From Spirochaetota bacterium (GTDB lineage: Bacteria > Spirochaetota > GWE2-31-10), in contig JBGUUT010000126.1 in NCBI GenBank assembly GCA_045133795.1, positions 7,943 through 71,942 of the forward strand: DNA of 64,000 nt, read 5' to 3'. The position numbers were made by a program, and so were the translations under genes. The notes under the pieces were generated by a model. It was not told where the DNA came from and ran no database searches. It saw only the letters and a list, made by a program, of their open reading frames with translations. Below are positions 1 to 59,498 of the stretch, one piece after another. Each line of letters starts with the position of its first letter. The stretch's first letter is position 1.

Positions 1-874
1 TTCCGCCACCGGGACCGATGTCTCCGATTTTCAAAGTCTTTTTTAATTCTTCCATAATAGGTGTATAAAGAGCATCAACTATATCTTTTGTATAAGTTGG
101 TAACAAATCAAAGATATCGTCTATAGAGCCAAACTGTTTTTTTGAGGACGAGAGTACAACCGCAGTCTTCAAGTCAATGACTGTAGAAGAAAGGTACATT
201 CTGCTTCCTAGCTTGATTATTTGTCCTCTTGCTACCATTGTTGCGTTTATGGCATTACCTAAAGCGACTGTCTTTTCTTTATTCGACCAGTCGGATGCTT
301 GAAATTTCATTTCTTTGATTGTCTTATCAAAGTTCGCTCTGTCTACTACATTTACTTTGCCGGTAGAAACAAGTTCTGCAATAAACAGTTCTGTTATTGC
401 ATCTGCTTCTTCACTGTTTACTGCCCCTGCTGTTATATCAAACGTCGAAACTGCGACATAGGGAAGTTGCATTTCTTGAGTTCCTTTAACTTGCGTAATA
501 CTTGTACTGACTGTTTTAGGATGTCTTAATACTCCGTCTTTAGTTCCGAATGAGTTAAATACAAATTCCGGCATTTCAGGATCTTCAAAATACAGACCAT
601 CATTAGGATTATAAAACTTATAATATTCTATTGGTTTTTCCATTACAAAACGATATTCCCATTCACCTTGTGCATTTCTTACCATCGGTTTGCCCGGTTC
701 TTCCCAGTCATTTGTCATTGTTCCGATACAGTTCACGGCTGACATCTTGTTATTTTTATATGTGATGATACACGTCCATTTGCTGTCTTTTTCCTCATAT
801 CTGACTTTTGCATTTACAGCCATTACGGAAAATAACAACATTGTAACTACTAATAATTTGATTAGTTTTCTCAT
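1..874 (-). CDS. Secreted protein, partial (the 3' end runs off the window start). The C-terminal half has a CsgG/LpoB/TolB-N-like periplasmic fold signature.
   Basis: ATG at 874..872 preceded by AAAGGAGA. My hand translation of the minus strand gives MRKLIKLLVVTMLLFSVMAVNAKVRYEEKDSKW..., a Sec signal peptide ending in an AVNA|K cleavage site, and the frame stays open to position 1. The segment VSTFDITAGAVNSEEADAITELFIAELVSTGKVNVVDRANFDKTIKEM..LGNAINATMVARGQIIKLGSRMYLSSTVIDLKT resembles CsgG/LpoB-type domains. It is absent from the ORF track because it is truncated. Confidence 0.45.
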   Translation of the reverse strand, partial: MRKLIKLLVVTMLLFSVMAVNAKVRYEEKDSKWTCIITYKNNKMSAVNCIGTMTNDWEEPGKPMVRNAQGEWEYRFVMEKPIEYYKFYNPNDGLYFEDPEMPEFVFNSFGTKDGVLRHPKTVSTSITQVKGTQEMQLPYVAVSTFDITAGAVNSEEADAITELFIAELVSTGKVNVVDRANFDKTIKEMKFQASDWSNKEKTVALGNAINATMVARGQIIKLGSRMYLSSTVIDLKTAVVLSSSKKQFGSIDDIFDLLPTYTKDIVDALYTPIMEELKKTLKIGDIGPGGG

Positions 875-901
875 TTATTTGTCTCCTTTATTTTTTGATT
901 A

Positions 902-1957
902 TTATATATGGTCTATAGTAAGAACTGTTTTCGATTTTGGACTTCCCCAAATTCTTTCAAATTGAGTTATAAATTGATTCGATATTTCAGGATTTAATTC
1001 AGAATTTATATAAAATACAAATGAATTCCTTGTTACTTCCGTGGCTGTATACAATGCGATATACAAAATGTTGTCACAGCGGATATAGGAAAAATACGGA
1101 ATATCATCATAGTATTTTAAACAGAGAGAAGCTTCTTGTCTGTTCATGGCGTTTTTAAATTCAAGATTATTTGAAAATGTATCTTTTAGTTCTTGATATT
1201 TCTTTTTTGTTTCTGTTGCTTTATCAAAGAAATCTTTTGTATCACCATTTCTGATATACGAAAATCTAGCTTTAACTAAATTTGATTCCGGTGATAACGC
1301 CATTATTCTGATTCTGGCACTTTGTGTATTAAGTAAGTTATTTTTAAAAATATCTAATGCTTCGGTAGATGTTTCACCTGTCATGCTTAAAATATCAATC
1401 TCTGTTGCTCTAGAAAATGCTGTTTTAATTATATCTTGGACTTTTGGGTCTATTCGTCTTCCGAGAAGATGAAGTCCCTTTTTATCTTCTCTGTTAAAAG
1501 CTATATTTTCACAATATTTATTATGTTCATATATTCTAAAAATATGCTCAACACTTTGCCGTATCTCATTTTTTGTTAATTCTATATCTTTTGAAATAGG
1601 ATTCATATTTGGATATGGATATGCAATAACATTCATTGCTCCTATATCAAAAGGAATCGAATCCTTAGAATTACCTGCTCTCAAAATAATACAAGGTTTA
1701 CCAGTCATGTGGCGGATTCCTAATTCATAAAAAACATTAGGATTTAAATCTGTAATGTCACATACAACTAAATCGGCTTCTTTAAGATTATGTACTATAT
1801 CAGTTGTAATGATATTTCGAGGAATATCAATTGGTAATAAAATATTGAAGTCATCTCCCAGAGCAGGAGTAAGTATATTATCTTGAACATATCTAGAACG
1901 TTTTCGTTCGGGCGAATCCGCTTCTTTCAATGTACAAATAAAAAACGCTGTTTTCAT
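902..1957 (-). CDS. Protein with an N-terminal nucleoside 2-deoxyribosyltransferase-like (SLOG/Rossmannoid) domain and an uncharacterised roughly 220-aa C-terminal domain
   Basis: 351-aa ORF with RBS AAAGGAG. The N-terminus MKTAFFICTL...EADLVVCDITDLNPNVFYELGIRHMTGKPCIIL matches the NDT/SLOG pattern (buried beta-strand start, D-x-x-D, NPNV-x-YELG with the Glu, GKP). The C-terminal region matches nothing I recognise. Confidence 0.55.
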   Translation of the reverse strand: MKTAFFICTLKEADSPERKRSRYVQDNILTPALGDDFNILLPIDIPRNIITTDIVHNLKEADLVVCDITDLNPNVFYELGIRHMTGKPCIILRAGNSKDSIPFDIGAMNVIAYPYPNMNPISKDIELTKNEIRQSVEHIFRIYEHNKYCENIAFNREDKKGLHLLGRRIDPKVQDIIKTAFSRATEIDILSMTGETSTEALDIFKNNLLNTQSARIRIMALSPESNLVKARFSYIRNGDTKDFFDKATETKKKYQELKDTFSNNLEFKNAMNRQEASLCLKYYDDIPYFSYIRCDNILYIALYTATEVTRNSFVFYINSELNPEISNQFITQFERIWGSPKSKTVLTIDHI

Positions 1958-2126
1958 TCTTATTTCTCCTTTATGTTTTGATTATTTTTACTTTCCATTC
2001 CGGAAAGTTTTTTTCTTTTGACCGGGAGTTCGACTTAGCTTTTTGCCGTTTTTTCCTGATGGGAAAAACTTCGTTCGTTCGCAATGCGAACTCACCTTAG
2101 CTCACGTTCGTCACTCCACGAGAACA

Positions 2127-2227
2127 CCTCTCATAACTGCATGAGAAATGCTCTCATAGCATTATGAGAATCTCTCTCATGCCGTTATGAGAACGTCTTC
2201 ACTCGTACTATGAGAGCCCCTCTCATG
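2127..2227. repeat. Tandem array of four imperfect 20-25 bp palindromic units (CTCTCATA-N5-7-TATGAGA). It may be operator-like and lies in the 5' region of the 902..1957 gene.
   Basis: Read directly: cctctcataactgcatgagaa, gctctcatagcattatgagaa, tctctcatgccgttatgagaa, then the inverted-orientation unit tatgagagcccctctcatgc. Additional dyads lie just upstream: GTTCGCA|TGCGAAC at about 2078-2092 and GTTTTTCC-tgat-GGAAAAAC at about 2049-2070. Confidence 0.6.
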
Positions 2228-2228
2228 C

Positions 2229-2963
2229 TTAATCATCGATTGCGTTACAAGCGTAGTTGTAAGTAATCTCACGTATCGAAGCGAGATTTGCTCCGCCGCT
2301 GTAGTTCGTTTTGATTTTCACGGTTACGGCTCCGGCAGGTACTGTCGACGGTACACGTGCGATTATTTGGCTCGGTTTGTTTACTGTCAGTCGGCGTGTT
2401 ACTCTGTGTTCTGCTCCCGTAGAGTCCACGATAAAGATTCCTTGATTTTGGTCGGCTTCATCGGTGATTTTGATTTTTTCGCCGTCGATTACGATGTCGT
2501 CGCCGATTGTGATTGTGCCGTCTTTGAGTCCTGTGGCACCGTCAGTAATCGCCGTGATTCGTGCAGAGGCTGATGTAGCTCCCATTACTTTCACAGATAT
2601 TCCGTCAAGTGTGCTTCGTAAATCTGCTGTCGGTACAAGGTCTACCGTGCGTTTGTGAGTAGCTGGGTCGAAGCTCGCTGCTTCATTTTCCCAAACTCCG
2701 CTTACTCTCGGCGTGATTTGCACTAAGCCGTCACGGAAACTTGAGCATTCTTGGATAAATGCTTTTACTGCATTGTCACGCAGGTTAAGAATATTGAGGA
2801 TTGTGTCCTTGCGGTATTCGCTTCGTTCGCTGACGATTCTTTCCGCTACGTCTTCGTTTGTCAATGTAGCACCGTTAAGGTGAACATCGGCGATACAGTC
2901 TTTGTCATTGTCTTTTGTGAGTGCGTTCGGTCGTAAGTAGACCTGCCATTGGTTGTTTGCCAT
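2229..2963 (-). CDS. Bacteroidetes-type HU-family DNA-binding protein (HU-HIG N-terminal domain plus DUF4469/Ig-like C-terminal domain)
   Basis: 244-aa ORF with RBS AAAGGAG. The N-terminus MANNQWQVYLRPNALTKDNDKDCIADVHLNGATLTNEDVAERIV follows the HU-HIG pattern (basic start, N-x-LT-x-D, Y/C-x-A-x-V) and FDPATHKRTVDLVPTADLR follows the DUF4469-like pattern. Local GC is clearly higher (about 48%) than the flanks (about 33%). Confidence 0.55.
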   Translation of the reverse strand: MANNQWQVYLRPNALTKDNDKDCIADVHLNGATLTNEDVAERIVSERSEYRKDTILNILNLRDNAVKAFIQECSSFRDGLVQITPRVSGVWENEAASFDPATHKRTVDLVPTADLRSTLDGISVKVMGATSASARITAITDGATGLKDGTITIGDDIVIDGEKIKITDEADQNQGIFIVDSTGAEHRVTRRLTVNKPSQIIARVPSTVPAGAVTVKIKTNYSGGANLASIREITYNYACNAIDD

Positions 2964-3031
2964 AGTAAATACTCCTTTGATTTCTTCTTTCCTTATGTGT
3001 AGTAAAGGCTGGAAGAAAGCAAAGAGAATGT

Positions 3032-3047
3032 AAAAAAAAAAAAAAAA
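3032..3047. repeat. A16 homopolymeric tract (T16 on the minus strand), 69-84 bp upstream of the 2229..2963 gene start
   Basis: 16 consecutive A residues counted in the sequence. Confidence 0.9.
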
Positions 3048-3226
3048 CTGTCAAATTTATTGATAATATATAGGAGTAAAAACATTTTTTTGGGCGTGCA
3101 GTTGGCTTCTTTTCTCCTCTTTGGCTGCCGGCACGCTCTTTTTAGGAAAACGGAAAGGTGAAAGAGGGAAGATGAGAAATGAGAATGAACTCACCGAGAG
3201 GAGCGTCCTTTTCTCTTGGGAGTTAT

Positions 3227-3276: not shown

Positions 3277-3470
3277 CCAACTTTGAACCAAAGTTGCATT
3301 TTAACGCCGGCTATGCCGGCAAAAAGAGCCTTAAACCTAAGTTGGTTTATAAAACTTTAAACCAAAGTTGCATTTTAACGCCGGCTATGCCGGCAAATAA
3401 AGCTCCAAACCTTGCAAAGTTTTAGAAAAGTTTTGTCCCCAAAACGACCATAACTCGCCGGCTATGCCGG
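3277..3470. repeat. Mosaic direct repeats (about 45-bp unit, present 2.5 times). Each unit carries an AT-rich hairpin (CAACTTTG..CAAAGTTG) and a GC hairpin (GCCGGC-TAT-GCCGGC).
   Basis: aaccaaagttgcattttaacgccggctatgccggcaaa occurs at about 3288 and again at about 3358. cgccggctatgccggcaaaag occurs a third time at about 3447, and the aactttaaacc modules are also repeated. Confidence 0.7.
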
Positions 3471-3518
3471 CAAAAGGAACTTTAAACCCACGTGGTTTGA
3501 AAAGCTTTGAAGAAAGCT

Positions 3519-49717: not shown

Positions 49718-50023
49718 TTACTCCTCTTCAATTGTACATAATAACGGGAAATGTTGTTCTCGTGCCGCAGTTGTGACTAGTGCTACTTTAGTTTCTGCAA
49801 TGTCAAGCGTGTAAGTTCCAACATTTGCTTGTCCTTTATTGTGAACTGCAGCCATTAAAAAGACTGCTTCATCATGAGATTTATGGAATATCTCAACCAA
49901 CACGGAAACAACAAAGTCCATCGTAGTGTAATCATCATTATGCATGATTACATGGTACATAGACGGTTCTTTAAATTTTGTTTGTTCAATGGTAATATTA
50001 GAACTTTCTCTTTTATATGCCAT
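49718..50023 (-). CDS. clpS: ATP-dependent Clp protease adaptor ClpS
   Basis: MYHVIMHNDDYTTMDFVVSVL and the length. Confidence 0.85.
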   Translation of the reverse strand: MAYKRESSNITIEQTKFKEPSMYHVIMHNDDYTTMDFVVSVLVEIFHKSHDEAVFLMAAVHNKGQANVGTYTLDIAETKVALVTTAAREQHFPLLCTIEEE

Positions 50024-50576
50024 ATACGACTGCCTTTCTCAAAGTTTCAGCGTTATCTTTTCCGCAAAAAACAGAAACCATTGATAACCCTAAATCTAAA
50101 GCTGTTCCTACGCCGCGACTTGTGATAATCTTACCGTCGATAACAACAGAATCTTCTGAGTATATACCGGTTTTAATTTTAGAGGCGGTAGACGGGTAGC
50201 AAGTGAATTTTTTATTTTCTAAAACACCGGCATCGGCTAAAACTAACGGAGCGGCACAAATAGCACAGACATATTTATCGTTTTTAGCAAAATCTTGTAC
50301 TGCATTAACAACATTTTTATTTGCTTGTAAATTTGTGACGCCCGGCATTCCGCCCGGAAGAAAAATACAATCTGCATTTTTTAAATCTGTGTCATTCCAC
50401 AATTTATCTGCAATAATTTTAAAATCATGTGCTCCGGTAACAGTCAGTTGCTCTGTCGATGAAACAATGCAAACATCAAGTTTTGCACGTCGAAGTAAAT
50501 CCGTAACGGCAATAAATTCTGTTTCTTCAAATCCTTCCGCTAATATTGCAATTATTTTCATATTATAAAACCTCAC
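50013..50576 (-). CDS. DJ-1/PfpI family protein
   Basis: EGFEETE motif and a nucleophile-elbow Cys (CAICAAP). Confidence 0.75.
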   Translation of the reverse strand: MRFYNMKIIAILAEGFEETEFIAVTDLLRRAKLDVCIVSSTEQLTVTGAHDFKIIADKLWNDTDLKNADCIFLPGGMPGVTNLQANKNVVNAVQDFAKNDKYVCAICAAPLVLADAGVLENKKFTCYPSTASKIKTGIYSEDSVVIDGKIITSRGVGTALDLGLSMVSVFCGKDNAETLRKAVVYGI

Positions 50577-50605
50577 TTTGACTTTGTAATTTTCTTATCA
50601 GCATA

Positions 50606-51631
50606 TCAAAAAATAACGACATCAAAATAACTTTTGTATTCTTCCAGTGTTTTCTTTTCAACTTCTTTTTTTGCATTTTTAATATTTTTCTTTTTTACTT
50701 CATCCATTGCGATAGCATAAGCATCTTCGCCGGTAATTTCTTTTTCAGGAATTCTTTCGATTAAATAGAAAATAAAAACGCCGTCTTGTGTAGCAAAAAG
50801 TTTTGGTACAAGCCCGTAATCGGCTTGAGAAAGAGTAGTCAAAATGTCTTGAGAAAAACGTTTTTTTGTATATTCATCTTCACGTTCTACTTTTCCGTAG
50901 TATCCTATAGGCGATTGTCTCAAGGAATACAGGTCTTCGGAATAATTTTTTGCCATCGCACTGAAATCTGCACCGCCTTTTAAACGGCCTAAACATTCCT
51001 CTGCGGTTTTGCATTTTTCGGCAATTTCATTTTTGGTAAGTTGTCTTCCTTCCTTAGAAAAAAAGGAGAAATAAATTAACATCAAATCGTATGTTTCTGA
51101 TTTTTTGAATAATCTGGGATTGTCTTTTATAAAGTTGTCAATTTCCTCTTGGCTGATTGTGTTGTTTTTCAGTTCGACTTCGGAATATAATGCGTTCATA
51201 TAATTTTCAACCATAATTCTTTTTATTGTGTAATCACGGTATTCTCTCATCGAACGATTTTGAAATCCTATGGAATTAAGAAATTCTTGGTCGGAAATTG
51301 ATTCGGTATCACGACGAAAATGAAGTGCGTAATATTGTTTTTCTTCCTTTATTGCATCCAGTATGACTTTTTCGTCCGGAACCGGCAGTCTGATTTTTGC
51401 GGCTTGATATAAGATTTCAAAATTAATGAGATTTTCTAAGGCTTGTTCGTATGAAACTTTAGATTGTCGCATAGCTTCTTCGACTTCGCTTTTTAGGAAA
51501 ACTTTATTTCCGACTTTAGCTGCACGATTTTTTTTGAAATCAAGCTTTGCGGCAAATACAAGGCTGCTTTCGGCAAATAAAAGAACAGTGATAAAAAATA
51601 TAAAAAAATTATTACGGTTAATTATTTTCAT
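50606..51631 (-). CDS. SurA/PrsA-like peptidyl-prolyl isomerase (parvulin) with a signal peptide
   Basis: A SurA-like N-terminal chaperone region and a parvulin-like GGADFSAMAKNYSED...GYYG segment. Confidence 0.55.
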   Translation of the reverse strand: MKIINRNNFFIFFITVLLFAESSLVFAAKLDFKKNRAAKVGNKVFLKSEVEEAMRQSKVSYEQALENLINFEILYQAAKIRLPVPDEKVILDAIKEEKQYYALHFRRDTESISDQEFLNSIGFQNRSMREYRDYTIKRIMVENYMNALYSEVELKNNTISQEEIDNFIKDNPRLFKKSETYDLMLIYFSFFSKEGRQLTKNEIAEKCKTAEECLGRLKGGADFSAMAKNYSEDLYSLRQSPIGYYGKVEREDEYTKKRFSQDILTTLSQADYGLVPKLFATQDGVFIFYLIERIPEKEITGEDAYAIAMDEVKKKNIKNAKKEVEKKTLEEYKSYFDVVIF

Positions 51632-51730
51632 AACTCAATATCCTTATGTGATTTAAAGAGTTTTGTAACACAAGAGATGACAAATCTCAATTAGTTTCAT
51701 TATAGAAAAGTAAGAAAATAAAAGTCGTAA

Positions 51731-51759
51731 TTGACAAGGATATTATCTATCGATATAAT
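51731..51759 (+). promoter_or_regulatory. Consensus sigma70 promoter TTGACA-N17-TATAAT
   Basis: Perfect hexamers about 65 bp upstream of the PPIase start. Confidence 0.4.
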
Positions 51760-51822
51760 CGCACGAAAATTTCAGACAAAGAAATATGATTATTTGTTAT
51801 CATCAAAAACGATGGAGGGAAT

Positions 51823-52884
51823 ATGAAAAAAAATGCCAAAATAATCTTGTTTTTTTTGGCAATACTTAGTATTGCATCATGTAAAAAAGCACCAAACATA
51901 AAGGAGAATGGAATGTTTGCAGTATTTAATACAAATATGGGAAGTTTTACTTGCCAATTATTTTATGACAAAGTTCCTGTAACCGTAGGAAATTTTGTAA
52001 GCCTTGTAGAAGGTAAAATGGAATTTACCGATCCTAAAACCGGCGATAAAGTAAAGAAAAGATATTATGACGGTTTAATTTTTCATAGAATTATTGACGG
52101 TTTCATGATTCAGGGCGGTGATATTTTGGGAACAGGTTACGGTGGCCCGGGATATTCTTTTATCGATGAGTTTGATTCTTCATTGAAACATTCAAGCGAA
52201 GGTATTCTTTCTATGGCTAATGCCGGTCCGGATACAAACGGAAGCCAATTTTTTATAACTTTGGTTCCTACGCCACATTTAGACGGTCGTCATGCTGTAT
52301 TCGGAAAAGTTGTTGACGGAATGGAAGTTGTTCGTGAAATCGGAAAAGTTAAAGTTGACCAAAACGACCGTCCGTTTAAAGAAGTTTTTATCAAAAACAT
52401 TGAAATAGTAAGAAACAGTGATGAAGCTAAAGCTTTTGACGAACTTGCAGCGTTCGGTAAACAAAATGAAATCTTGAAAAAAAGAGAAATCGAAAACGAA
52501 GCTAAAAAAGTTGAATTGTTGAAAACTTTGGGTTGTGACGGTCTTGAAATGAAGAAAACTTCATCAGGAATGGAGTATTGTGTTCTTAAAGACGGTTCTG
52601 GAAAACAACCTACAAAAGGTAAAATCATTACAGCTCATTATGCCGGATATTTCTTAGACGGAAGTAAATTTGACAGTTCTTATGACAGAGGTGAACCGTT
52701 TAACGTTAATATCGGAGTAGGAAGAGTTATTCCGGGATGGGATGAAGCACTTCTTGATATGAAAGAAGGTGAAAAAAGAGTAATTATTCTTCCTTATTAT
52801 TTAGCTTACGGAGAGCGTGGTTACGGTCCGATTCCGCCGAAAGCTACATTAGTATTTGAAGTAGAGCTTTTAAAAGCAGAATAA
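51823..52884 (+). CDS. Bifunctional peptidyl-prolyl isomerase lipoprotein (N-terminal cyclophilin plus C-terminal FKBP)
   Basis: Lipobox LSIASC, the cyclophilin segment FHRIIDGFMIQGGD...GPDTNGSQFFIT, and the FKBP segment GKIITAHYAGYFLDGSKFDSS...IPGWDEAL. Confidence 0.8.
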   Translation: MKKNAKIILFFLAILSIASCKKAPNIKENGMFAVFNTNMGSFTCQLFYDKVPVTVGNFVSLVEGKMEFTDPKTGDKVKKRYYDGLIFHRIIDGFMIQGGDILGTGYGGPGYSFIDEFDSSLKHSSEGILSMANAGPDTNGSQFFITLVPTPHLDGRHAVFGKVVDGMEVVREIGKVKVDQNDRPFKEVFIKNIEIVRNSDEAKAFDELAAFGKQNEILKKREIENEAKKVELLKTLGCDGLEMKKTSSGMEYCVLKDGSGKQPTKGKIITAHYAGYFLDGSKFDSSYDRGEPFNVNIGVGRVIPGWDEALLDMKEGEKRVIILPYYLAYGERGYGPIPPKATLVFEVELLKAE

Positions 52885-52895
52885 TTTTGTTAAAG

Positions 52896-52939
52896 TAAAA
52901 AAAATGTTGTTCTTAATGTTTTAAGAGCAACATTTTTTT
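52896..52939 (+). terminator. Rho-independent terminator
   Basis: 15-bp stem AAATGTTGTTCTTAA/TTAAGAGCAACATTT followed by a T-run. Confidence 0.7.
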
Positions 52940-52966
52940 ATAATGCTGGGTATATAAAACAGAGTA

Positions 52967-53725
52967 ATGAGGGGTTCAGAAATGCTTTTTGTTAATTTTT
53001 TCTTAAATATTATAACTTATTTGGCTTTGGTTATCATGACAGTATGTTCTGTTCCGCTTTTTTTCTGGTTGTTGTTTATTAAAAAAACATCACGATTTCC
53101 TATTGCATCAAAATTAATTTTTGGACCGTGGTCGTTTATTATAAACAGAGTCTTGTGTCATATTAATCTCAAAATCAGGGGACAGGAGTTTGTTGATAAG
53201 AAACGTAAAACAATTTATATCTGTAATCATCAATCATGGCTCGACATTACAACGTTTATAAACAGTACCGGAGCTGTTCCGATTTCAAAAGAGGAAGTAA
53301 AAAAGATTCCGTTTTTAGGAATGATGATTGTTTATAACGGACCGATTTATTTACAGCGAAATAATACCAAAGACAGACTCGGAATAATAAAAGAAGTTCG
53401 AGAACTTTTCAGTGATGAAAAAAGAGCACAATCGCTTTGTTTTTTTCCGGAAGGAACACGAAGTATCAACGGAGAATTACAAGCTCCTAATTTGGCATTG
53501 ATAAAACTTGCTTATAAAATGAATGTTCCTGTAGTTCCGGCTGCAATTAACGGAACAATAAACGTACTTCCTAAAGGTAAGATTTTTATCAGAGGATTCA
53601 AAAAAGTTACTTTAGAATATACGCAACCGATTTTACCTGGCGATTATCCGGACAGCAATTCGTTCAGTGAAGCTTGTTGGGAAAGAGTAAAGACTACTTA
53701 TGATAAACTTGTTTCGGAAAATTAA
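52967..53725 (+). CDS. plsC: 1-acyl-sn-glycerol-3-phosphate acyltransferase
   Basis: NHQSWLD (the HX4D motif) and FPEGTRS, with an N-terminal TM helix. Confidence 0.75.
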   Translation: MRGSEMLFVNFFLNIITYLALVIMTVCSVPLFFWLLFIKKTSRFPIASKLIFGPWSFIINRVLCHINLKIRGQEFVDKKRKTIYICNHQSWLDITTFINSTGAVPISKEEVKKIPFLGMMIVYNGPIYLQRNNTKDRLGIIKEVRELFSDEKRAQSLCFFPEGTRSINGELQAPNLALIKLAYKMNVPVVPAAINGTINVLPKGKIFIRGFKKVTLEYTQPILPGDYPDSNSFSEACWERVKTTYDKLVSEN

Positions 53726-53890
53726 TTAGTTTTTCTCGTCTGAAGTTTGTAATACGTAATATTTAAAAACATTTAGTAAATTTTCTTGTAAGACCCCTTG
53801 TTCTGTTTATTTTGGCTTGAATGAAATAGAGGAACATTATATAGTTAAAAATATTTGATAAATTTTCTTGCTACTTGGGAGGTGGAGAGA

Positions 53891-56800
53891 ATGAGAAGGG
53901 CTTTTGTTCGAACCGGAAATATTTTTGGGTATGTAAGTTTATTTCTGATGTTTATATTTTTCGGTTGTACACAGGAATGTATGAATGGTGATAAGCCTGA
54001 AAAAAAAGTCGAAAAAAATAAACATTCTACGACTTTACAGGATGTGGTAAATAATGCAGCTGCCGGTGAAGAAATTGATTTAGCGGAATATGAAAGCATT
54101 ACAGACTACAATGCCGTAATAAGTAAGCAACTTGTTATTAAAAACGGAAGCTTGAGTAATGCAAAATTAGTTATAGATTCCGAAAATGTCAAACTTGATA
54201 AAGTAAAAGGTGTTTCCGTAACAACATTGTCAGCTTCTTCTTTAACTATAACTGACAGTAGTATTAATGAGTTACTGTTTATCGGGAAAAACTATTCAGA
54301 CAACAGCACTTCAAGAAGTTCTAAATCATATTCTTTTATGAAAGAAAGCAGCGTGACGATGAACGGAATATCAACCGTTAATTGCGTTACTATGAATTTC
54401 AGTAAAGCGAAATTAAAAATATCGGACGGTTCTTCTGCCGAAACTGTAGCAATTTTAGATGATGCGGCAATTTCCGGAAAAATTGAAGAATTAGTAATTA
54501 AAGAATTAAATACTGCGGTGACTTTAGAAAAAGCAAATATTACAAATGTTGTAATGGACGGTTTTAATTCTCAACTTGCGGTATTGGATACAGAGACTGT
54601 ATTAGAAAATGTATCTATAAATACGGAATGTAAAATCTTGTGTAATGCGGTTATGTCGGATGAAATGGAAAAGGCGTTTACTTCAGACGGTGTATTGACT
54701 GTTGTGGATATGACGGAAAAACCGCAATTGGAACGTTTGTTAATATTAAGTATGCCTACAAATATTTTCAGCGACAACGGTGAAATAGATTTTACCGGAT
54801 TGAAAGTTTGCGGTGTATATGAAAATGTTACGTCAAAAGTTTATACGGGTGTCGGCGAAGAAGAAAACAAAGAAGCTTTTATGAAATTGGAAACCGATTA
54901 TAAAATAGAAGTGATTTCGGAAGAAGACGGTATTATAAAAGTTCGTATAAGCAAAGACGGAAAAGAATGTATTTTTGAAATGCTTGATTCCGAGAAAATT
55001 GCAAAGTATACGGTAAAACATTGTCAGGAAAATGCAGAAAATGAGAATTACGAAATTATTGTAACTGCAGATACAGAAACAAAAACCGGAAAAGTTGGCG
55101 AACTTACAAATGCAGAGGCAAAAACTTATGAAGGTTATACTGTTGAGCCTATAGAGCAAGTTGAAATAACGGCAGACGGAAATGCTACAGTATATATTAA
55201 ATACAAGAGAAACAGAGTTACATTGACGTTGAAATTTGACGACGGAACAACAACTACAGATAAAAAAATAAATGGAAAATATGGAGTAACGGTACCGACA
55301 GTAGAGACTCCGACTAGAAATGGATATAATTTTGCCGGTTGGAATCCGCAGTTACCGGAGACTTTCCCTGCCGAAAGTACGACATATACGGCTAAGTGGG
55401 CAAAAGAGGGAGATTATATTATCACGTACGAGCTTAACGAAGGAACAAATGCCGACAGTAATCCGCCAAGTTATAATGAAGAAACATTGCCTATAACATT
55501 AGCCGATGCAACCAGAGAAGACTATATATTCGGCGGCTGGTACAAAGATAAAGATTGTACAGAAGAAAACAAAGTGACCAAGATCCCTAATGGTTCAACC
55601 GGAAATATTACGCTTTACGCAAAATGGATTGCACGAACTTTAGAGCAGACGTTTGAGGCTGGCTATTCAAATCAAAACAATGCTAATGCAAACGGTGTTT
55701 CATATAATACGGACAAAGGTTATGGTGTTGTAACGGTAAAAGCTCCGGATTCTACCGAATCAGTTTGGGATTATTATGTAAGGTCAAAGGATGTGACTTT
55801 TACGTATAAAAAAAATTATACGGTTTCGGTAGATTTAAAAGCAGACAAAGCGAGCGTTGTTGCGATTGCAGCGGCAAGAGCGGATATGTTTTTTACAGTC
55901 GGAACAGAATGGACAACTTGTACTTTTGAAACCGGCTATTTGGAAACAGACCTTTCGAATAAAGAACAAAATTGTATAACAATCGGTTCCGGATTGGTTG
56001 GAACGCTTTCTATATCAAATCTGGTTATTACAAAAACAGAGGAAAATGACAACTTGCCGACATTAAGTTTCTTTATTGAAAAAGCCGGTATTAATACTTA
56101 TTTGAATTCAGATTTTGCAACGAAAAATATTATCGAAGTTGAGAAAGCAAAAGATGCTGAGACTGAAACTAAAATACTCGGATATAAGCTTACACTTAAT
56201 TCTACCGGTGTGTCTTTACAATTGAGAGATTATGCTCCTGTTTCAGGAAATAAATTAAACAGGGCGATTTTTAATCTTAAAACAGACAATGAGATCTTGA
56301 ATTCTGCCGTGGTGGCTTCGGTGGCTTCTTCAAGCGGTTATGTAAATTGTTGGAATAAGGCGTCCGTTATAGGAACTTCCGGAAAAGATTGCGAGGTATG
56401 TTTCCCTTCATATTCAGAAGAGACTTCCGGCGTGGAAGAGTGTGCGGTAGAGGGGATTATTAGCAAAGATGCGAACAATGGAATCACAGAACAGGTCGGA
56501 AATACGATAACTATTACGAACTTTTCAATTACTAATGTCACTGATTTGGCAAATTCTGGCAAAACTTTTGCAATAAAGAAAACAGAAAACAACTCAGATA
56601 TTTGGAGTAAATCGAGCTCAGTGCCTTTTTACGTAGACGTAACTATTCCTGCTAATAATCACACTGTTTTTGATGTACTTTTAGGAAATAAAGTTGAAGA
56701 GGGTAAATCTTTCAACTGGGATGATGTTACTCGATTCTTGTACCAAAAGACTTCCGGGGAACTTATCGATAATTCGAATGTAGTTAAATATGTGATTGAC

Positions 56801-57385
56801 AAAGGTAGTAGTGGTAATCCGACATATAAATTGGTTAATACATCGACAGAGAGCGATGTTACTTGTATAATTACACTTACAAAAGACCTAAAGGTTGAAA
56901 TCTCAGAAGGATTAGTTATTAATCTTGATGATGAAACTAATAACCTTAAACAGACTATTAGAGAGTACATAAATGAAGTTGCTGGTGATGTAAACGAAAA
57001 GACAATAAGAATAACTGGTGTAGATGGCAATAACTATATAAATGATATATCTGAAGGTTTGGGGAAAGGTTCTTCTGATGCTCGTATAAATCTAGATTTA
57101 AGCGGAGTGACGGGATTGAGTGAGATTCCGGAATATGCTTTTGAAGATTGCGATAACTTGGTAAGCATTACAATTCCTGCCGGTGTAAATATAATCGGAG
57201 CAAATGCTTTTAGTGATTGTACTTCGTTAGAAGAAGTTTACTTTATGGAGACTGGTGTTATGTGGGATTTGATGGATACTGAAATTACAGTTGTGGGAAC
57301 TATCACAGTTAGTACTGATGCCAAGGAAAATGCAAGAAACCTACTAGCAAACTCTTCTTATGATTGGGGTAAATCAGATTATTAA
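53891..57385 (+). CDS. Large surface lipoprotein with Listeria-Bacteroides (Flg_new) repeats and C-terminal BspA-type leucine-rich repeats
   Basis: RBS GGAGG and a lipobox (FFGC). The Flg_new-type repeats include NGYNFAGWNP...YTAKWA and EDYIFGGWYKDKDC...LYAKWIA. The BspA-like LRR is IPEYAFEDCDNLVSITIPAGVNIIGANAFSDCTSLEEVYF. Confidence 0.7.
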   Translation: MRRAFVRTGNIFGYVSLFLMFIFFGCTQECMNGDKPEKKVEKNKHSTTLQDVVNNAAAGEEIDLAEYESITDYNAVISKQLVIKNGSLSNAKLVIDSENVKLDKVKGVSVTTLSASSLTITDSSINELLFIGKNYSDNSTSRSSKSYSFMKESSVTMNGISTVNCVTMNFSKAKLKISDGSSAETVAILDDAAISGKIEELVIKELNTAVTLEKANITNVVMDGFNSQLAVLDTETVLENVSINTECKILCNAVMSDEMEKAFTSDGVLTVVDMTEKPQLERLLILSMPTNIFSDNGEIDFTGLKVCGVYENVTSKVYTGVGEEENKEAFMKLETDYKIEVISEEDGIIKVRISKDGKECIFEMLDSEKIAKYTVKHCQENAENENYEIIVTADTETKTGKVGELTNAEAKTYEGYTVEPIEQVEITADGNATVYIKYKRNRVTLTLKFDDGTTTTDKKINGKYGVTVPTVETPTRNGYNFAGWNPQLPETFPAESTTYTAKWAKEGDYIITYELNEGTNADSNPPSYNEETLPITLADATREDYIFGGWYKDKDCTEENKVTKIPNGSTGNITLYAKWIARTLEQTFEAGYSNQNNANANGVSYNTDKGYGVVTVKAPDSTESVWDYYVRSKDVTFTYKKNYTVSVDLKADKASVVAIAAARADMFFTVGTEWTTCTFETGYLETDLSNKEQNCITIGSGLVGTLSISNLVITKTEENDNLPTLSFFIEKAGINTYLNSDFATKNIIEVEKAKDAETETKILGYKLTLNSTGVSLQLRDYAPVSGNKLNRAIFNLKTDNEILNSAVVASVASSSGYVNCWNKASVIGTSGKDCEVCFPSYSEETSGVEECAVEGIISKDANNGITEQVGNTITITNFSITNVTDLANSGKTFAIKKTENNSDIWSKSSSVPFYVDVTIPANNHTVFDVLLGNKVEEGKSFNWDDVTRFLYQKTSGELIDNSNVVKYVIDKGSSGNPTYKLVNTSTESDVTCIITLTKDLKVEISEGLVINLDDETNNLKQTIREYINEVAGDVNEKTIRITGVDGNNYINDISEGLGKGSSDARINLDLSGVTGLSEIPEYAFEDCDNLVSITIPAGVNIIGANAFSDCTSLEEVYFMETGVMWDLMDTEITVVGTITVSTDAKENARNLLANSSYDWGKSDY

Positions 57386-57407
57386 ATCTGTGATTTATTT
57401 TTAGATA

Positions 57408-57456
57408 TAAAAAAGCATACCGTAAAGTTTTTCGCTTTTAGGTATGCTTTTTTTGT
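57408..57456. terminator. Rho-independent terminator. It is copy 1 of a duplicated terminator and is bidirectional in form.
   Basis: Stem AAAAGCATACC/GGTATGCTTTT followed by a T-run. A near-identical copy lies at 57716-57759. Confidence 0.65.
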
Positions 57457-57465
57457 TGCAGTTAA

Positions 57466-57573
57466 TTATTTATTTAGCTCGGCGTAAAGTTCAGCTTTAG
57501 CTTTTATTACAGTGTCGATTAATGTGTCCGGTGCAACGATTGTTTTCTCATTGTTGGGAAAAACTTCGCTCAT
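57466..57573 (-). pseudogene. Duplicated fragment of the proS 3' end (last roughly 30 codons), with a fortuitous ATG
   Basis: The stretch at about 57471-57560 is roughly 85% identical to 57771-57863. Its translation MSEVFPNNEKTIVAPDTLIDTVIKAKAELYAELNK compares with the ProS C-terminus ...NNEKTIVALDALIDTVVKAKAELYAELNK. Confidence 0.55.
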
Positions 57574-57595
57574 GTATTACGTACATTCGCCACAG

Positions 57596-57712
57596 CCGGA
57601 ACGATGTTATTCCATTAAGCTCGAACGATGTGTTTTAGCTAGCCGGAACGATGTGTTTCATTAAGCTGGAACGATGTGTTTCATTAAGCTGGAACGATGT
57701 GTTCACGTTGCG
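57596..57712. repeat. Tandem repeat of about 23 bp x 5 (consensus GGAACGATGTGTTTCATTAAGCT), contiguous with no spacers
   Basis: Copies read at 57596, 57622, 57644, 57668 and 57691. The last copy is degenerate. Confidence 0.75.
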
Positions 57713-57715
57713 AAT

Positions 57716-57759
57716 AAAAAAGCATACCGTAAGTTTCTCGCTTTTAGGTATGCTTTTTT
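57716..57759 (-). terminator. Rho-independent terminator of proS (copy 2)
   Basis: Same stem as at 57411-57451, with a T-run on the minus strand. Confidence 0.7.
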
Positions 57760-57770
57760 GTGTAGTTTAA

Positions 57771-59498
57771 TTATTTGTTTAACTCAGCGTAAAGTTCGGC
57801 TTTGGCTTTTACTACAGTGTCGATTAAAGCGTCCAAGGCAACGATTGTTTTCTCATTGTTGCCAATAGTCACTTCTGCACCGCCGTTTTGCAATGATTTT
57901 TCGCCTAATGCAATTTTTATAGGAGAACCGATAAGGTCTGCGTCTTTAAATTTAAATCCCGGAGATGCGTTTCTGTCATCATAAAGAACTTCTATTCCGG
58001 CAGCTTTCAATTTTGCATAAATGTCTTCACAGATTTCTTTTACGTTGTTTTGGTTGTCTTTGTGCAATCCTATCAACTCTACTTCAAACGGAGCGATAGA
58101 AATAGGCCATAAGATTTTGTCTTCATCGGCACGAACTTCCAAAACACTTGCAAGAAGACGACCGACACCGATTCCGTAACATCCCATAATCATCGGAACT
58201 TCTTTTCCTTCTTTATTTAGGTACATACATTTCATAGATTGTGTGTATTTTGTACCGAGTTTAAAAATATTTCCGATTTCGATACCACGTTTTACTGTCA
58301 AAGGTTTACCGCAACATGGACAAGCTTCACCTTCGTTTACACTGGAAATATCCAAAACTTCGTCAGTATTCCAGTCTCTTCCAAAATTTGTGTTTTTTGT
58401 GTGTACATCAATTTTGTTTCCGCCGGCAATCAGATTGCTAGAGTTGGCTGCAGACTCATCTGCTATGATTCGAACTTTTTTACCGTTGAAAGTCTGTCCT
58501 ACAGGTGAGGCAAAACCTTTTACTATACCGGCAGCTTCAAGTTCTTCGTCAGTTGCAAGGAAAATTGTTTTTGCTTTCAAGTAATTGCGTAGTTTTGTTT
58601 CGTTTATTTCCAAATCTCCGCGAATTGCACAGAATGCCAATTCTTCTCCGGTAGAATAAACAACGGCTTTTAAAGTGTGGTCGGCTGTAGTTCCCAAGAA
58701 TGTTGCAACTTCATCGATAGTTTTTTGGTTCGGTGTAGCGACATCTTCCATCGACAACATTTCTTCTTTCAAATAATCACGTTTTGCTTTTGCAACTTCT
58801 TTGTTTGCACGGTAGTCGCATGATGAACAAATTACGAGTGTATCTTCACCGGCTTCTGTTACAGCCATAAATTCATCAGCTCCGGAACCTCCCATCATTC
58901 CGGTATCGGAAGAAACTGCAAGGGCGTTGATTCCGCAACGTTTGAAAATTTTATGATATGCATCGTACATTTCTTGATAATATTTTTCTAAATCTTCGTA
59001 AGATTCATGGTAAGAGTAAGCGTCTTTCATTACGAATTCACGTACTCGGATTAAACCGCCTCGAACTCTCGGTTCATCACGGAATTTAGTTTGTAATTGG
59101 TAAACTTTCATCGGTAATTGCTTGTAAGATGTCACGGCATAACGAATTAAATCGGTAACGATTTCTTCGTGTGTCATGCTCAAAACCATTTTTCTGCCGC
59201 TTCTGTCATCAAAGCGAAGTAATTCTTCTCCGACCCTTTCGTAGCGACCGGACTCTGCCCAAAGTGAAGCCGGTACTGCTACAGGCATATTGATTTCTTG
59301 ACAGCCGGTAGCGTCCATTTCTTCACGAATTATATTTTCTATTTTCTTTAAAGCTCGCCAAGCGATAGGTAAGTAAGTAAATATACCGGCTCCGACTTGT
59401 TTTACATAGCCGCCGCGTAATAATAATTTGTGACTTTTTAAATCTGCGTCTTTTGGTGTTTCTTTTGTTGTTTTTAATAAATATCCGGAAAGTTTCAT
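57771..59498 (-). CDS. proS: Proline--tRNA ligase (bacterial type with an editing INS domain)
   Basis: Class II motifs, the length (575 aa), and an N-terminus typical of ProS (MKLS.YLLKTTKE). Confidence 0.9.
   Translation of the reverse strand: MKLSGYLLKTTKETPKDADLKSHKLLLRGGYVKQVGAGIFTYLPIAWRALKKIENIIREEMDATGCQEINMPVAVPASLWAESGRYERVGEELLRFDDRSGRKMVLSMTHEEIVTDLIRYAVTSYKQLPMKVYQLQTKFRDEPRVRGGLIRVREFVMKDAYSYHESYEDLEKYYQEMYDAYHKIFKRCGINALAVSSDTGMMGGSGADEFMAVTEAGEDTLVICSSCDYRANKEVAKAKRDYLKEEMLSMEDVATPNQKTIDEVATFLGTTADHTLKAVVYSTGEELAFCAIRGDLEINETKLRNYLKAKTIFLATDEELEAAGIVKGFASPVGQTFNGKKVRIIADESAANSSNLIAGGNKIDVHTKNTNFGRDWNTDEVLDISSVNEGEACPCCGKPLTVKRGIEIGNIFKLGTKYTQSMKCMYLNKEGKEVPMIMGCYGIGVGRLLASVLEVRADEDKILWPISIAPFEVELIGLHKDNQNNVKEICEDIYAKLKAAGIEVLYDDRNASPGFKFKDADLIGSPIKIALGEKSLQNGGAEVTIGNNEKTIVALDALIDTVVKAKAELYAELNK

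What the first reader, a model, noticed from the sequence alone, without database searches (positions are those of the whole stretch)
57408..57770. Duplicated proS 3' end and terminator flanking a 23-bp x 5 tandem repeat, a recombination scar or minisatellite
The last roughly 90 bp of proS together with its terminator hairpin (57716-57863) are repeated at 57408-57560 with about 85% identity. This leaves a 35-codon pseudo-ORF (57466-57573). Between the two copies lie five head-to-tail copies of GGAACGATGTGTTTCATTAAGCT (57596-57712). The tandem repeat has no spacers, so it is not CRISPR-like. The pattern suggests a past insertion or illegitimate recombination event at the proS terminator, perhaps associated with acquisition of the neighbouring large surface-protein gene. 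The minisatellite could be variable in copy number between strains.
Basis: seen in the sequence. Interest (0 to 1): 0.5.

Follow-up and report, generated by a model that had tools for sequence, protein, structure and literature searches.

The report
Orphan proS end plus variable minisatellite
Downstream of the essential proS gene of an uncultured herbivore-gut spirochete lies a leftover second copy of the gene's last ~90 bases with its terminator. A 23-base repeat array separates it from the gene and varies from about 4 to 16 copies between strains. This is a real but ordinary recombination scar, with no sign of a function or of a mobile element.

Summary
Window 57408-57556 is an ~85% identical second copy of 57714-57861, which holds the last 91 nt of proS plus a bidirectional terminator hairpin. 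Between the copies lies a 23-bp tandem array (57594-57703, 4.7 units).

Related assemblies show a strain polymorphism in one clade of uncultured gut Spirochaetales:
- **Empty sites:** nearly identical proS alleles occur with no insertion.
- **Filled sites:** about a dozen independent contigs carry the same architecture, with about 3.7 to 15.8 units.
- **Orphan copy:** it matches real proS 3' ends of other strains (2/90 and 1/90 differences). This explains why most differences between the copies are synonymous.
- **Exchange between copies:** copies within a locus show mosaic or concerted patterns.

The 23-mer was found only here. The IMG/VR, JGI, plasmid and phage searches gave nothing beyond two chance matches in JGI, and no recombinase gene lies nearby. 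The neighbouring LRR surface-protein gene is orthologous in empty-site strains, so the scar is not tied to its acquisition.

Best reading: a displaced 3' end left by inter-lineage recombination at the proS boundary of a variable surface-protein locus, plus a slippage-driven minisatellite. It is probably neutral. Interest is low.

The parts
57771..59498 (-). proS, a bacterial-type prolyl-tRNA synthetase of 575 aa. Its last 91 nt belong to the proximal repeat copy.
   Evidence: ORF and translation. Pfam tRNA-synt_2b, tRNA_edit and HGTP_anticodon on the identical protein. 99% identical to P0001 and in a cluster named proline--tRNA ligase.
57714..57861 (-). Proximal copy: the functional proS 3' end (57771-57861) plus terminator 1.
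   Evidence: Direct repeats D2, D4 and D5 and the alignment. Its 90-nt coding part is identical to the proS end of empty-site locus L028.
57716..57759 (.). Terminator hairpin 1: A-tract, 13-bp stem, U-tract, so bidirectional in form.
   Evidence: Inverted repeat I4. RNA fold -15.6 kcal/mol, z -3.8.
57704..57716 (-). Left junction TATTCGCAACGTG (in proS orientation), between terminator 1 and the array. It is identical in the window, L002 and the P0128-lineage loci.
   Evidence: Sequence comparison of the loci. Empty sites read TATCTAAAAATAAAT here instead.
57594..57703 (.). 23-bp minisatellite, 4.7 units here. Consensus in proS orientation is AACACATCGTTCCAGCTTAATG(G/A). Interior units are identical and edge units are diverged.
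   Evidence: TRF and the repeat finder D1/D3. Copy numbers of 3.7 to 15.8 in related loci.
57557..57593 (-). Right junction segment (GGCTGTGGCGAATGTACGTAATACATGAGCGAAGTTTTTCC) between the array and the orphan copy. It supplies the ATG of the pseudo-ORF and has no Shine-Dalgarno sequence.
   Evidence: Its similarity to the proS sequence upstream of the repeat is not significant. In L002 the array abuts pristine proS sequence instead.
57408..57556 (-). Distal orphan copy of the proS 3' end (coding-like part 57466-57556, within the 35-codon pseudo-ORF 57466-57573) plus terminator 2.
   Evidence: It differs at 2/90 nt from the real proS end of L025. It carries an L-to-P change seen in no real allele.
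57409..57453 (.). Terminator hairpin 2. It also serves the convergent LRR gene that ends at 57385.
   Evidence: Inverted repeat I2. Folds of -17.4 kcal/mol (minus strand) and -23.1 kcal/mol (plus strand), z -6.0 and -5.4.
53855..57385 (+). Convergent neighbour: a large Flg_new/BspA-type LRR surface protein. It is context only and not part of the scar.
   Evidence: Pfam. Orthologous gene in empty-site locus L016, about 94% nt identity.

Best explanation
The feature is a strain-polymorphic, non-coding scar in the convergent intergenic region downstream of proS, with three elements.

1. **Proximal copy.** It is the working 3' end of proS with its intrinsic terminator.
2. **Distal copy.** It is an orphan: a 3' end of a different proS allele, with its terminator, that was displaced when DNA of another lineage recombined at this gene boundary. 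The boundary is the edge of a hypervariable surface-protein locus. The event was either one homologous plus one illegitimate junction, or a Campbell-type single crossover (inferred).
3. **Array.** The 23-bp array between the copies is a minisatellite. It changes length by slipped-strand mispairing or unequal crossing-over (mechanism inferred; length variation shown).

The two ~150-bp direct repeats keep exchanging sequence by gene conversion (shown as mosaic and concerted patterns). Recombination between them can also delete the insert and restore an empty site, possibly with a swapped C-terminal allele (inferred).

No function is needed to explain the feature. At most it adds a second terminator between two convergent genes.
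For: **Architecture**
-.

**Presence/absence polymorphism**
- L027 (array) and L028 (empty) encode the same ProRS protein, P0131.
- L016, L018 and L025 are also empty, with the terminator followed directly by TATCTAAAAATAAAT.

**Same architecture elsewhere**
- It occurs in L002, L006-L009 and L012-L014, from different samples and assemblers.
- Partial versions occur in L001, L010, L015 and L027, where contigs end in the array.

**Orphan copies match real alleles**
- The window orphan differs from the L025 proS end at 2/90 nt.
- The L002 orphan differs from the L016 proS end at 1/90 nt, and is 97.4% identical over 192 nt.
- This explains 8 synonymous against 3 non-synonymous differences between the window copies.

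**Lineage breakpoint at the stop codon in L002**
- Positions 1-3095 are 97.6% identical to L019, whose native terminator is different.

**Exchange between copies**
- Proximal-distal differences per 90 nt range from 2 to 27.
- L007 and L009 are mosaic.
- Two synonymous sites co-vary between the copies in 6 of 7 P0128-lineage loci.

**Array behaviour**
- Length varies from 3.7 to 15.8 units, with conserved edge units and homogenised interior units.
- L007 and L009, from two different samples, have identical arrays.

**No function indicated**
- No Shine-Dalgarno sequence precedes the pseudo-ORF, although neighbouring genes have one.
- The ORF start is absent in L002 and the copy is destroyed in L011.
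- No promoter-like site and no Rfam family.
Against: - The origin of the 23-bp unit and of the right junction segment is unexplained. No progenitor was found in about 290 kb of related sequence. Similarity to proS is only in the top 1-2% of windows.
- The left junction is 100% conserved across lineages whose flanks are only 85-92% identical. This could point to constraint or to recent horizontal spread.
- Copy numbers come from short-read metagenome assemblies that often break or gap in the array (L001, L008, L010, L013, L015), so individual counts may be wrong.
- The direction of the founding event, and whether foreign DNA was involved at all, cannot be determined.
Confidence: 0.62

Rival explanations
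1. Decayed integrative element (CIME-like). A site-specific element that targets the 3' end of proS integrated, bringing its own proS-like 3' end and terminator, and then lost all its genes. The two copies would be attL and attR, and the 23-bp repeats would be former arm-type recombinase-binding sites that later expanded.
For: - Direct repeats of a gene's 3' end flank an insert, and the gene is restored.
- Precise empty sites exist.
- The same insert is joined to three different proS end alleles.
- The left junction is perfectly conserved.
- CIMEs are defined as elements that keep attL and attR but have lost their integration and transfer genes (PMC5704250).
Against: - No integrase or relic lies in or near the insert. 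Gene order is the same in filled and empty sites.
- No larger element sits at this site in any of about 25 related loci.
- The 23-mer is absent from IMG/VR, from JGI metagenomes apart from two chance hits, and from plasmids and phages.
- Homology spans about 150 bp with mosaic divergence, rather than a short identical core.
- The insert is only about 150-400 bp.
Confidence: 0.12
2. Purely local origin. Replication slippage or template switching at the terminator hairpin produced a tandem duplication of the proS end. The upstream part of the extra copy decayed and amplified into the 23-bp array. Divergence between the copies came later, through ordinary allelic recombination.
For: - In L008, L012 and L013 the two copies are almost identical, with 2-3 differences per 90 nt.
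- The left junction plus first unit aligns collinearly with proS TATTGGCAACAATGAGAAAACAATCGTTGCC...GCTTTAATCGACAC, with p about 0.01-0.02 against random windows.
- A TAT microhomology lies at the junction.
Against: - The unit's similarity to proS is weak: top 1-2% of 25,504 windows, with many unrelated windows scoring higher.
- In the window and in L002 the copies match different real alleles, so extra recombination steps would be needed.
- Near-identity in L008 and L013 is equally explained by gene conversion.
Confidence: 0.16
3. Functional module. The array is a protein-binding or promoter region, and the 35-codon ORF (or an sRNA ending at terminator 2) is expressed. For example, it could make a peptide that mimics the ProRS C-terminus, or it could act as a silent cassette for switching the proS C-terminal allele.
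For: - The ORF is intact, with an ATG, in the window and in all seven P0128-lineage loci that hold a distal copy.
- It has its own terminator.
- Sequence is exchanged between the orphan and the real end.
- Real alleles equal to orphan copies exist.
Against: - No Shine-Dalgarno sequence and no promoter-like site.
- The ORF start is absent in L002 and the copy is destroyed in L011.
- The window's orphan carries an L-to-P change absent from all real alleles.
- Many strains lack the whole structure.
- Intactness is explained by gene conversion and by the youth of the copy.
- The array lies between two convergent gene ends.
Confidence: 0.05

Closest known systems
Bacterial intergenic VNTR / minisatellite loci, such as those used for MLVA typing (for example MIRU-VNTR of Mycobacterium tuberculosis; from general knowledge)
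   Same: Head-to-tail repeats of a few tens of bases in an intergenic region. Copy number differs between strains. Interior units are homogenised and edge units are diverged.
   Different: Here the array is embedded between two copies of a gene's 3' end and terminator. The unit is unique to this locus rather than belonging to a dispersed family.
C-terminal displacement leaving 'orphan' 3' ends in rhs, cdiA and T6SS effector-immunity loci. [quoted passage not shown]
   Same: A full-length gene is followed by a displaced 3' fragment that matches functional alleles in other strains. One junction is homologous and the other apparently illegitimate. The arrays then spread by homologous recombination.
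   Different: The gene is a housekeeping aminoacyl-tRNA synthetase, not a polymorphic toxin. There is no immunity gene and only one orphan. The variants differ by a few conservative residues, so diversifying selection is not evident.
attL/attR duplications of a target gene's 3' end around integrative elements, and their gene-less relics (CIMEs) (PMC5704250)
   Same: Direct repeats of a gene's 3' end flank an insert. The gene stays intact. Empty and filled sites coexist in the population.
   Different: No recombinase, no cargo, no larger relative and no second site were found. Homology is about 150 bp and mosaic rather than a short core.
Silent-cassette gene conversion systems of spirochetes (Borrelia vlsE/vls, Treponema pallidum tprK donor sites; from general knowledge)
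   Same: A partial, unexpressed copy next to an expressed gene exchanges sequence with it by gene conversion in a spirochete.
   Different: There is a single cassette, the target is an essential cytoplasmic enzyme, the amino-acid variation is minimal, and many strains lack the cassette.

Membership tests
VNTR / minisatellite | Head-to-tail repeats of a unit of about 10-100 bp | tested here: met
   TRF finds period 23, 4.7 copies and 81% matches at 57594-57703, with the repeat finder families D1 and D3.
VNTR / minisatellite | Copy number differs between strains at the same locus | tested here: met
   3.7 (L002), 4.7 (window), 8.7 (L007), 12.8 (L006) and 15.8 (L012) copies. Caveat: these are short-read assemblies, and several break or gap in the array.
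VNTR / minisatellite | Interior units are homogenised and edge units diverged, the signature of slippage or unequal crossover | tested here: met
   The first unit and the last two units are shared between the window and the P0128 lineage, while interior units vary in number and are near-identical.
Integrative element scar / CIME | Direct repeats of the target gene's 3' end flank the insert, and a precise empty site exists | tested here: met
   (empty sites L016, L018, L025, L028).
Integrative element scar / CIME | A related full-length element with a recombinase at the same site, or a recombinase relic inside the insert | tested here: not met
   Neighbours are NadA, Rrf2, ProRS, a surface protein, an acyltransferase and a PPIase in both filled and empty loci. 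The insert has no coding capacity apart from the 35-codon ORF.
Integrative element scar / CIME | Element sequences recur at other sites, in other genomes or in mobile-element collections | tested here: not met
   0 hits in IMG/VR. Two chance hits in an unrelated soil CDS in JGI metagenomes. No plasmid or phage match. Within the fetched loci the sequence occurs only downstream of proS. ENA and Logan could not be searched by nucleotide sequence.
C-terminal displacement loci (rhs / cdiA / T6SS EI) | An orphan 3' fragment downstream of the full gene that matches functional alleles elsewhere | tested here: met
   The window orphan differs from the L025 end at 2/90 nt. The L002 orphan differs from the L016 end at 1/90 nt and is 97.4% identical over 192 nt.
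C-terminal displacement loci (rhs / cdiA / T6SS EI) | The variable 3' region encodes a toxin domain with a cognate immunity gene | tested here: not met
   The gene is proS. The variants differ at a few conservative residues. No gene lies between the copies.
Diversity-generating retroelement (TR/VR pair) | Mismatches between the two repeats fall at adenines of one copy, and a reverse transcriptase lies nearby | tested here: not met
   The 11 differences are of mixed types: C/A, T/C, G/A, T/A and C/T. No reverse transcriptase is among the neighbours.
CRISPR array | Repeats separated by unique spacers of similar length | tested here: not met
   The units abut one another with period 23.
Plasmid iterons / partition centromere arrays | Tandem repeats of about 17-23 bp next to a rep or par gene, or on a replicon | tested here: not met
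   No rep or par gene is in the neighbourhood and there is no plasmid match. Protein binding cannot be tested here.

The most novel reading that the evidence does not exclude
The orphan copy could be a silent cassette that lets an essential aminoacyl-tRNA synthetase switch its C-terminal allele by gene conversion or deletion. Alternatively, the 35-codon ORF could be expressed as a peptide that mimics the ProRS C-terminus, with the 23-bp array acting as its variable control region. The evidence shows sequence exchange between the orphan and the real end, and real alleles identical to orphan copies. It shows no expression signals, and many strains lack the structure.
Probability: 0.04. Interest if true: 0.6.

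Novelty: new member of a known kind. Interest (0 to 1): 0.2.

Why it matters
- **Practical value.** It gives a strain-resolving length marker (4 to about 16 units of 23 bp) for an uncultured Spirochaetales species of ruminant and herbivore guts.
- **Assembly warning.** It explains why short-read assemblies of this species break just after proS.
- **Recombination example.** It shows that the 3' end of an essential gene can be a recurrent inter-lineage recombination breakpoint at the edge of a variable surface-protein locus. A displaced gene end can then persist and undergo concerted evolution with the functional end.
- **Limits.** It does not reveal a new mechanism or system.

Tried and rejected
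- **Dispersed or mobile repeat.**
  - The tandem pattern and the single-unit pattern gave 0 hits in IMG/VR.
  - JGI metagenomes gave 0 hits with the tandem pattern and 2 chance hits with the single-unit pattern, both inside an unrelated soil CDS.
  - blastn of the whole feature found nothing in plasmids or phages.
- **REP-like dispersed hairpin.** The hairpin occurs only at the two copies.
- **Known RNA family, tRNA or tmRNA.** None found.
- **DGR template/variable repeat pair.** The mismatches are not adenine-specific.
- **Replication terminus or dif-type site.** GC skew follows gene strand, with no switch at this locus.
- **Array derived from proS sequence.**
  - The left junction gave p of about 0.01-0.02.
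  - The unit alone ranks only in the top 1-2% of windows.
  - The right junction is not significant.
  - This idea is left as a hint.
- **Progenitor of the unit or junction in related loci.** None found in about 290 kb.
- **Searching with the 35-aa peptide.**
  - An exact look-up found no called gene.
- **Tn7-like end next to a conserved gene's terminator.** Considered from memory and rejected: all units are in direct orientation, there are no inverted ends, and a 150-bp duplication is not a transposition footprint.

Full report
**1. What is in the window**

- **proS.** The gene lies on the minus strand at 57771-59498. It encodes a 575-aa bacterial-type ProRS with an editing domain.
- **Terminator 1.** In proS orientation, the stop codon is followed by an A-tract/13-bp stem/U-tract hairpin at 57716-57759 (-15.6 kcal/mol, z -3.8).
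- **Left junction.** The sequence TATTCGCAACGTG follows the hairpin.
- **Array.** Next comes a 23-bp tandem array at 57594-57703 (4.7 units, 81% matches).
- **Right junction.** A 37-nt segment follows the array.
- **Second copy.** It comprises the last ~90 nt of proS with a second hairpin, 57408-57556, terminator at 57409-57453 (-17.4 kcal/mol on the minus strand and -23.1 on the plus strand).
- **Repeat statistics.**
  - The two copies form three collinear direct-repeat segments with a 305-307 nt offset: 108 nt at 85%, 29 nt at 97% and 19 nt at 100%.
  - No other long repeat of this kind exists in the 64 kb.
  - The hairpin motif occurs only at these two places.
- **Pseudo-ORF.** The distal copy sits in a 35-codon ORF, MSEVFPNNEKTIVAPDTLIDTVIKAKAELYAELNK.
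- **Neighbour.** The convergent gene at 53855-57385 encodes a Flg_new/BspA-LRR surface protein.

**2. The differences between the copies are not random decay**

- In the 90 coding-like nucleotides there are 11 differences.
- By codon, 8 are synonymous and 3 are non-synonymous (read).
- That pattern is expected if the two copies diverged while each was the end of a functional proS gene in a different lineage.

**3. Related sequences**

The organism belongs to a clade of uncultured Spirochaetales from ruminant and herbivore guts. The ProRS 90%-identity cluster has 99 members, with several C-terminal variants. Contexts were fetched for six ProRS sequences, including the window's own, and for four MAGs.

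- **Empty sites.**
  - L016 and L018 (P0127), L025 (P0001) and L028 (P0131) have proS, one hairpin, then TATCTAAAAATAAAT and the LRR gene. None has an array or a second copy.
  - L028 has exactly the window's proS end (90/90 nt) and is 98.7% identical to the window over proS.
  - L027 encodes the same ProRS protein as L028 but carries the array.
  - The structure is therefore a presence/absence polymorphism within one allele background.
- **Filled sites.**
  - L002, L006-L009 and L012-L014 have the full architecture.
  - L001, L010, L015 and L027 end inside the array.
  - L008 and L013 have N-gaps in the array.
  - TRF copy numbers are 3.7 (L002), 8.7 (L007), 12.8 (L006) and 15.8 (L012).
  - L007 and L009, from different samples, have identical arrays.
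  - The first unit and the last two units are shared between lineages, while the interior varies. This is the usual signature of slippage or unequal crossing-over.
- **Orphans match real alleles.**
  - The window's orphan differs at 2/90 nt from the real proS end of L025.
  - L002's orphan differs at 1/90 nt from the real end of L016 and is 97.4% identical to it over 192 nt.
- **A chimera in L002.**
  - Positions 1-3095 are 97.6% identical to L019.
  - L019's native context has a different terminator and no array.
  - From the stop codon onward, L002 carries the GCATACC terminator, the array and an L016-type orphan.
  - The proS stop codon and terminator is thus an inter-lineage recombination breakpoint.
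- **More distant relatives.** L003-L005 and L019-L024 have other terminators and no repeats.

**4. Ongoing exchange between the two copies**

- Proximal-distal differences per 90 nt are:
  - 27 in L002
  - 14 in L014
  - 11 in the window
  - 10 in L006
  - 7 in L007 and L009, where all but the first two fall in the 3' half
  - 3 in L012
  - 2 in L008 and L013
- Two synonymous sites (ACA/ACG and ATC/ATT) differ between P0128-lineage loci. They agree between the two copies of the same locus in 6 of 7 cases.
- This indicates gene conversion or repeated recombination.
- Recombination between the direct repeats would also delete the insert and recreate an empty site whose proS end may be the former orphan. 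This step is inferred, not observed.

**5. Not linked to the surface-protein gene**

- Window 50000-57200 is about 94% identical to empty-site locus L016, LRR gene included.
- The same scar sits next to a 790-aa protein without Pfam hits in the P0128 lineage.
- In L011 it sits next to a different, unidentified protein gene.
- The gene downstream of proS is itself highly variable between strains.

**6. No evidence of a mobile element or of a function**

- The 23-mer is absent from the rest of the window.
- It is absent from IMG/VR.
- In JGI metagenomes it gave only two chance hits in a soil CDS.
- It has no plasmid or phage match.
- In all fetched loci it occurs only downstream of proS.
- No recombinase, rep or par gene is nearby, and synteny is the same in filled and empty loci.
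- There is no Rfam family, tRNA or promoter-like site.
- The pseudo-ORF lacks a Shine-Dalgarno sequence, whereas most neighbouring genes have one.
- Its ATG segment is missing in L002 and the copy is destroyed in L011.
- In the window the orphan has an L-to-P substitution seen in no real allele.
- The 23-bp unit contains a stop codon in one frame on each strand, so no ORF can cross three units (read directly from the sequence).

**7. Origin of the array**

- The left junction plus first unit aligns collinearly with the proS segment at the start of the duplicated region, with p of about 0.01-0.02.
- The unit alone ranks only in the top 1-2% of 25,504 windows, and the right junction is not significant.
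- No progenitor was found in related loci.
- The origin of the unit stays open.

**8. Comparison with known systems**

- The feature behaves as an intergenic VNTR combined with a displaced gene end.
- The closest mechanistic analogue is C-terminal displacement with orphan 3' ends in rhs, cdiA and T6SS effector loci. [quoted passage not shown]
- It is not a member of that class, because the gene is housekeeping and there is no toxin or immunity gene.
- It formally resembles a CIME, which retains attL and attR without genes (PMC5704250). However, it fails the tests for a recombinase relative and for recurrence elsewhere.
- It is not CRISPR, a DGR or an iteron array.

**9. Verdict**

- It is a real, population-variable recombination scar with a minisatellite: a new instance of known kinds of events.
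- It is probably neutral.
- It is useful as a strain marker and as a warning about assembly breaks.
- Confidence in the best explanation is 0.62.
- Interest is 0.2.

Noticed in passing
window 3279-3489: Three direct copies of a ~60-nt unit, spaced 74 and 77 nt apart and 90% and 65% identical to the first. Each carries the GC-rich palindrome GCCGGCTATGCCGGC. They lie in an intergenic region between two minus-strand ORFs. No Rfam family matches.
   Followed up: partly
window 53855-57385 and the equivalent position in L002, L006-L014, L016, L019 and L011: The gene downstream of proS is a hypervariable surface-protein slot. Different strains carry Flg_new/LRR proteins of 1116-1202 aa, a 790-aa protein with no Pfam hit, or, in L011, an unidentified protein gene unrelated to these. 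The flanking genes (NadA, Rrf2, proS, acyltransferase, PPIase) are conserved.
   Followed up: partly
window 57137-57392 (3' end of the LRR gene): This stretch is only 84-89% identical to L016, L025 and L028. The rest of the downstream region is about 94% identical to L016. A further recombination boundary may lie inside the LRR gene's 3' end.
   Followed up: no
L011 3020-3260: This is a variant of the scar. After about 6 units comes a decayed version of the right junction, then one isolated extra unit (CTAGCTAAAACACATCGTTC), then unrelated sequence with a different terminator and a different downstream gene. The orphan proS copy is missing.
   Followed up: partly
L001 5056-5152; L010, L015 and L027 contig ends; L008 and L013 N-gaps: Short-read assemblies of this species repeatedly end or gap inside the 23-bp array just after proS. 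The locus is therefore a systematic contig-break point.
   Followed up: yes
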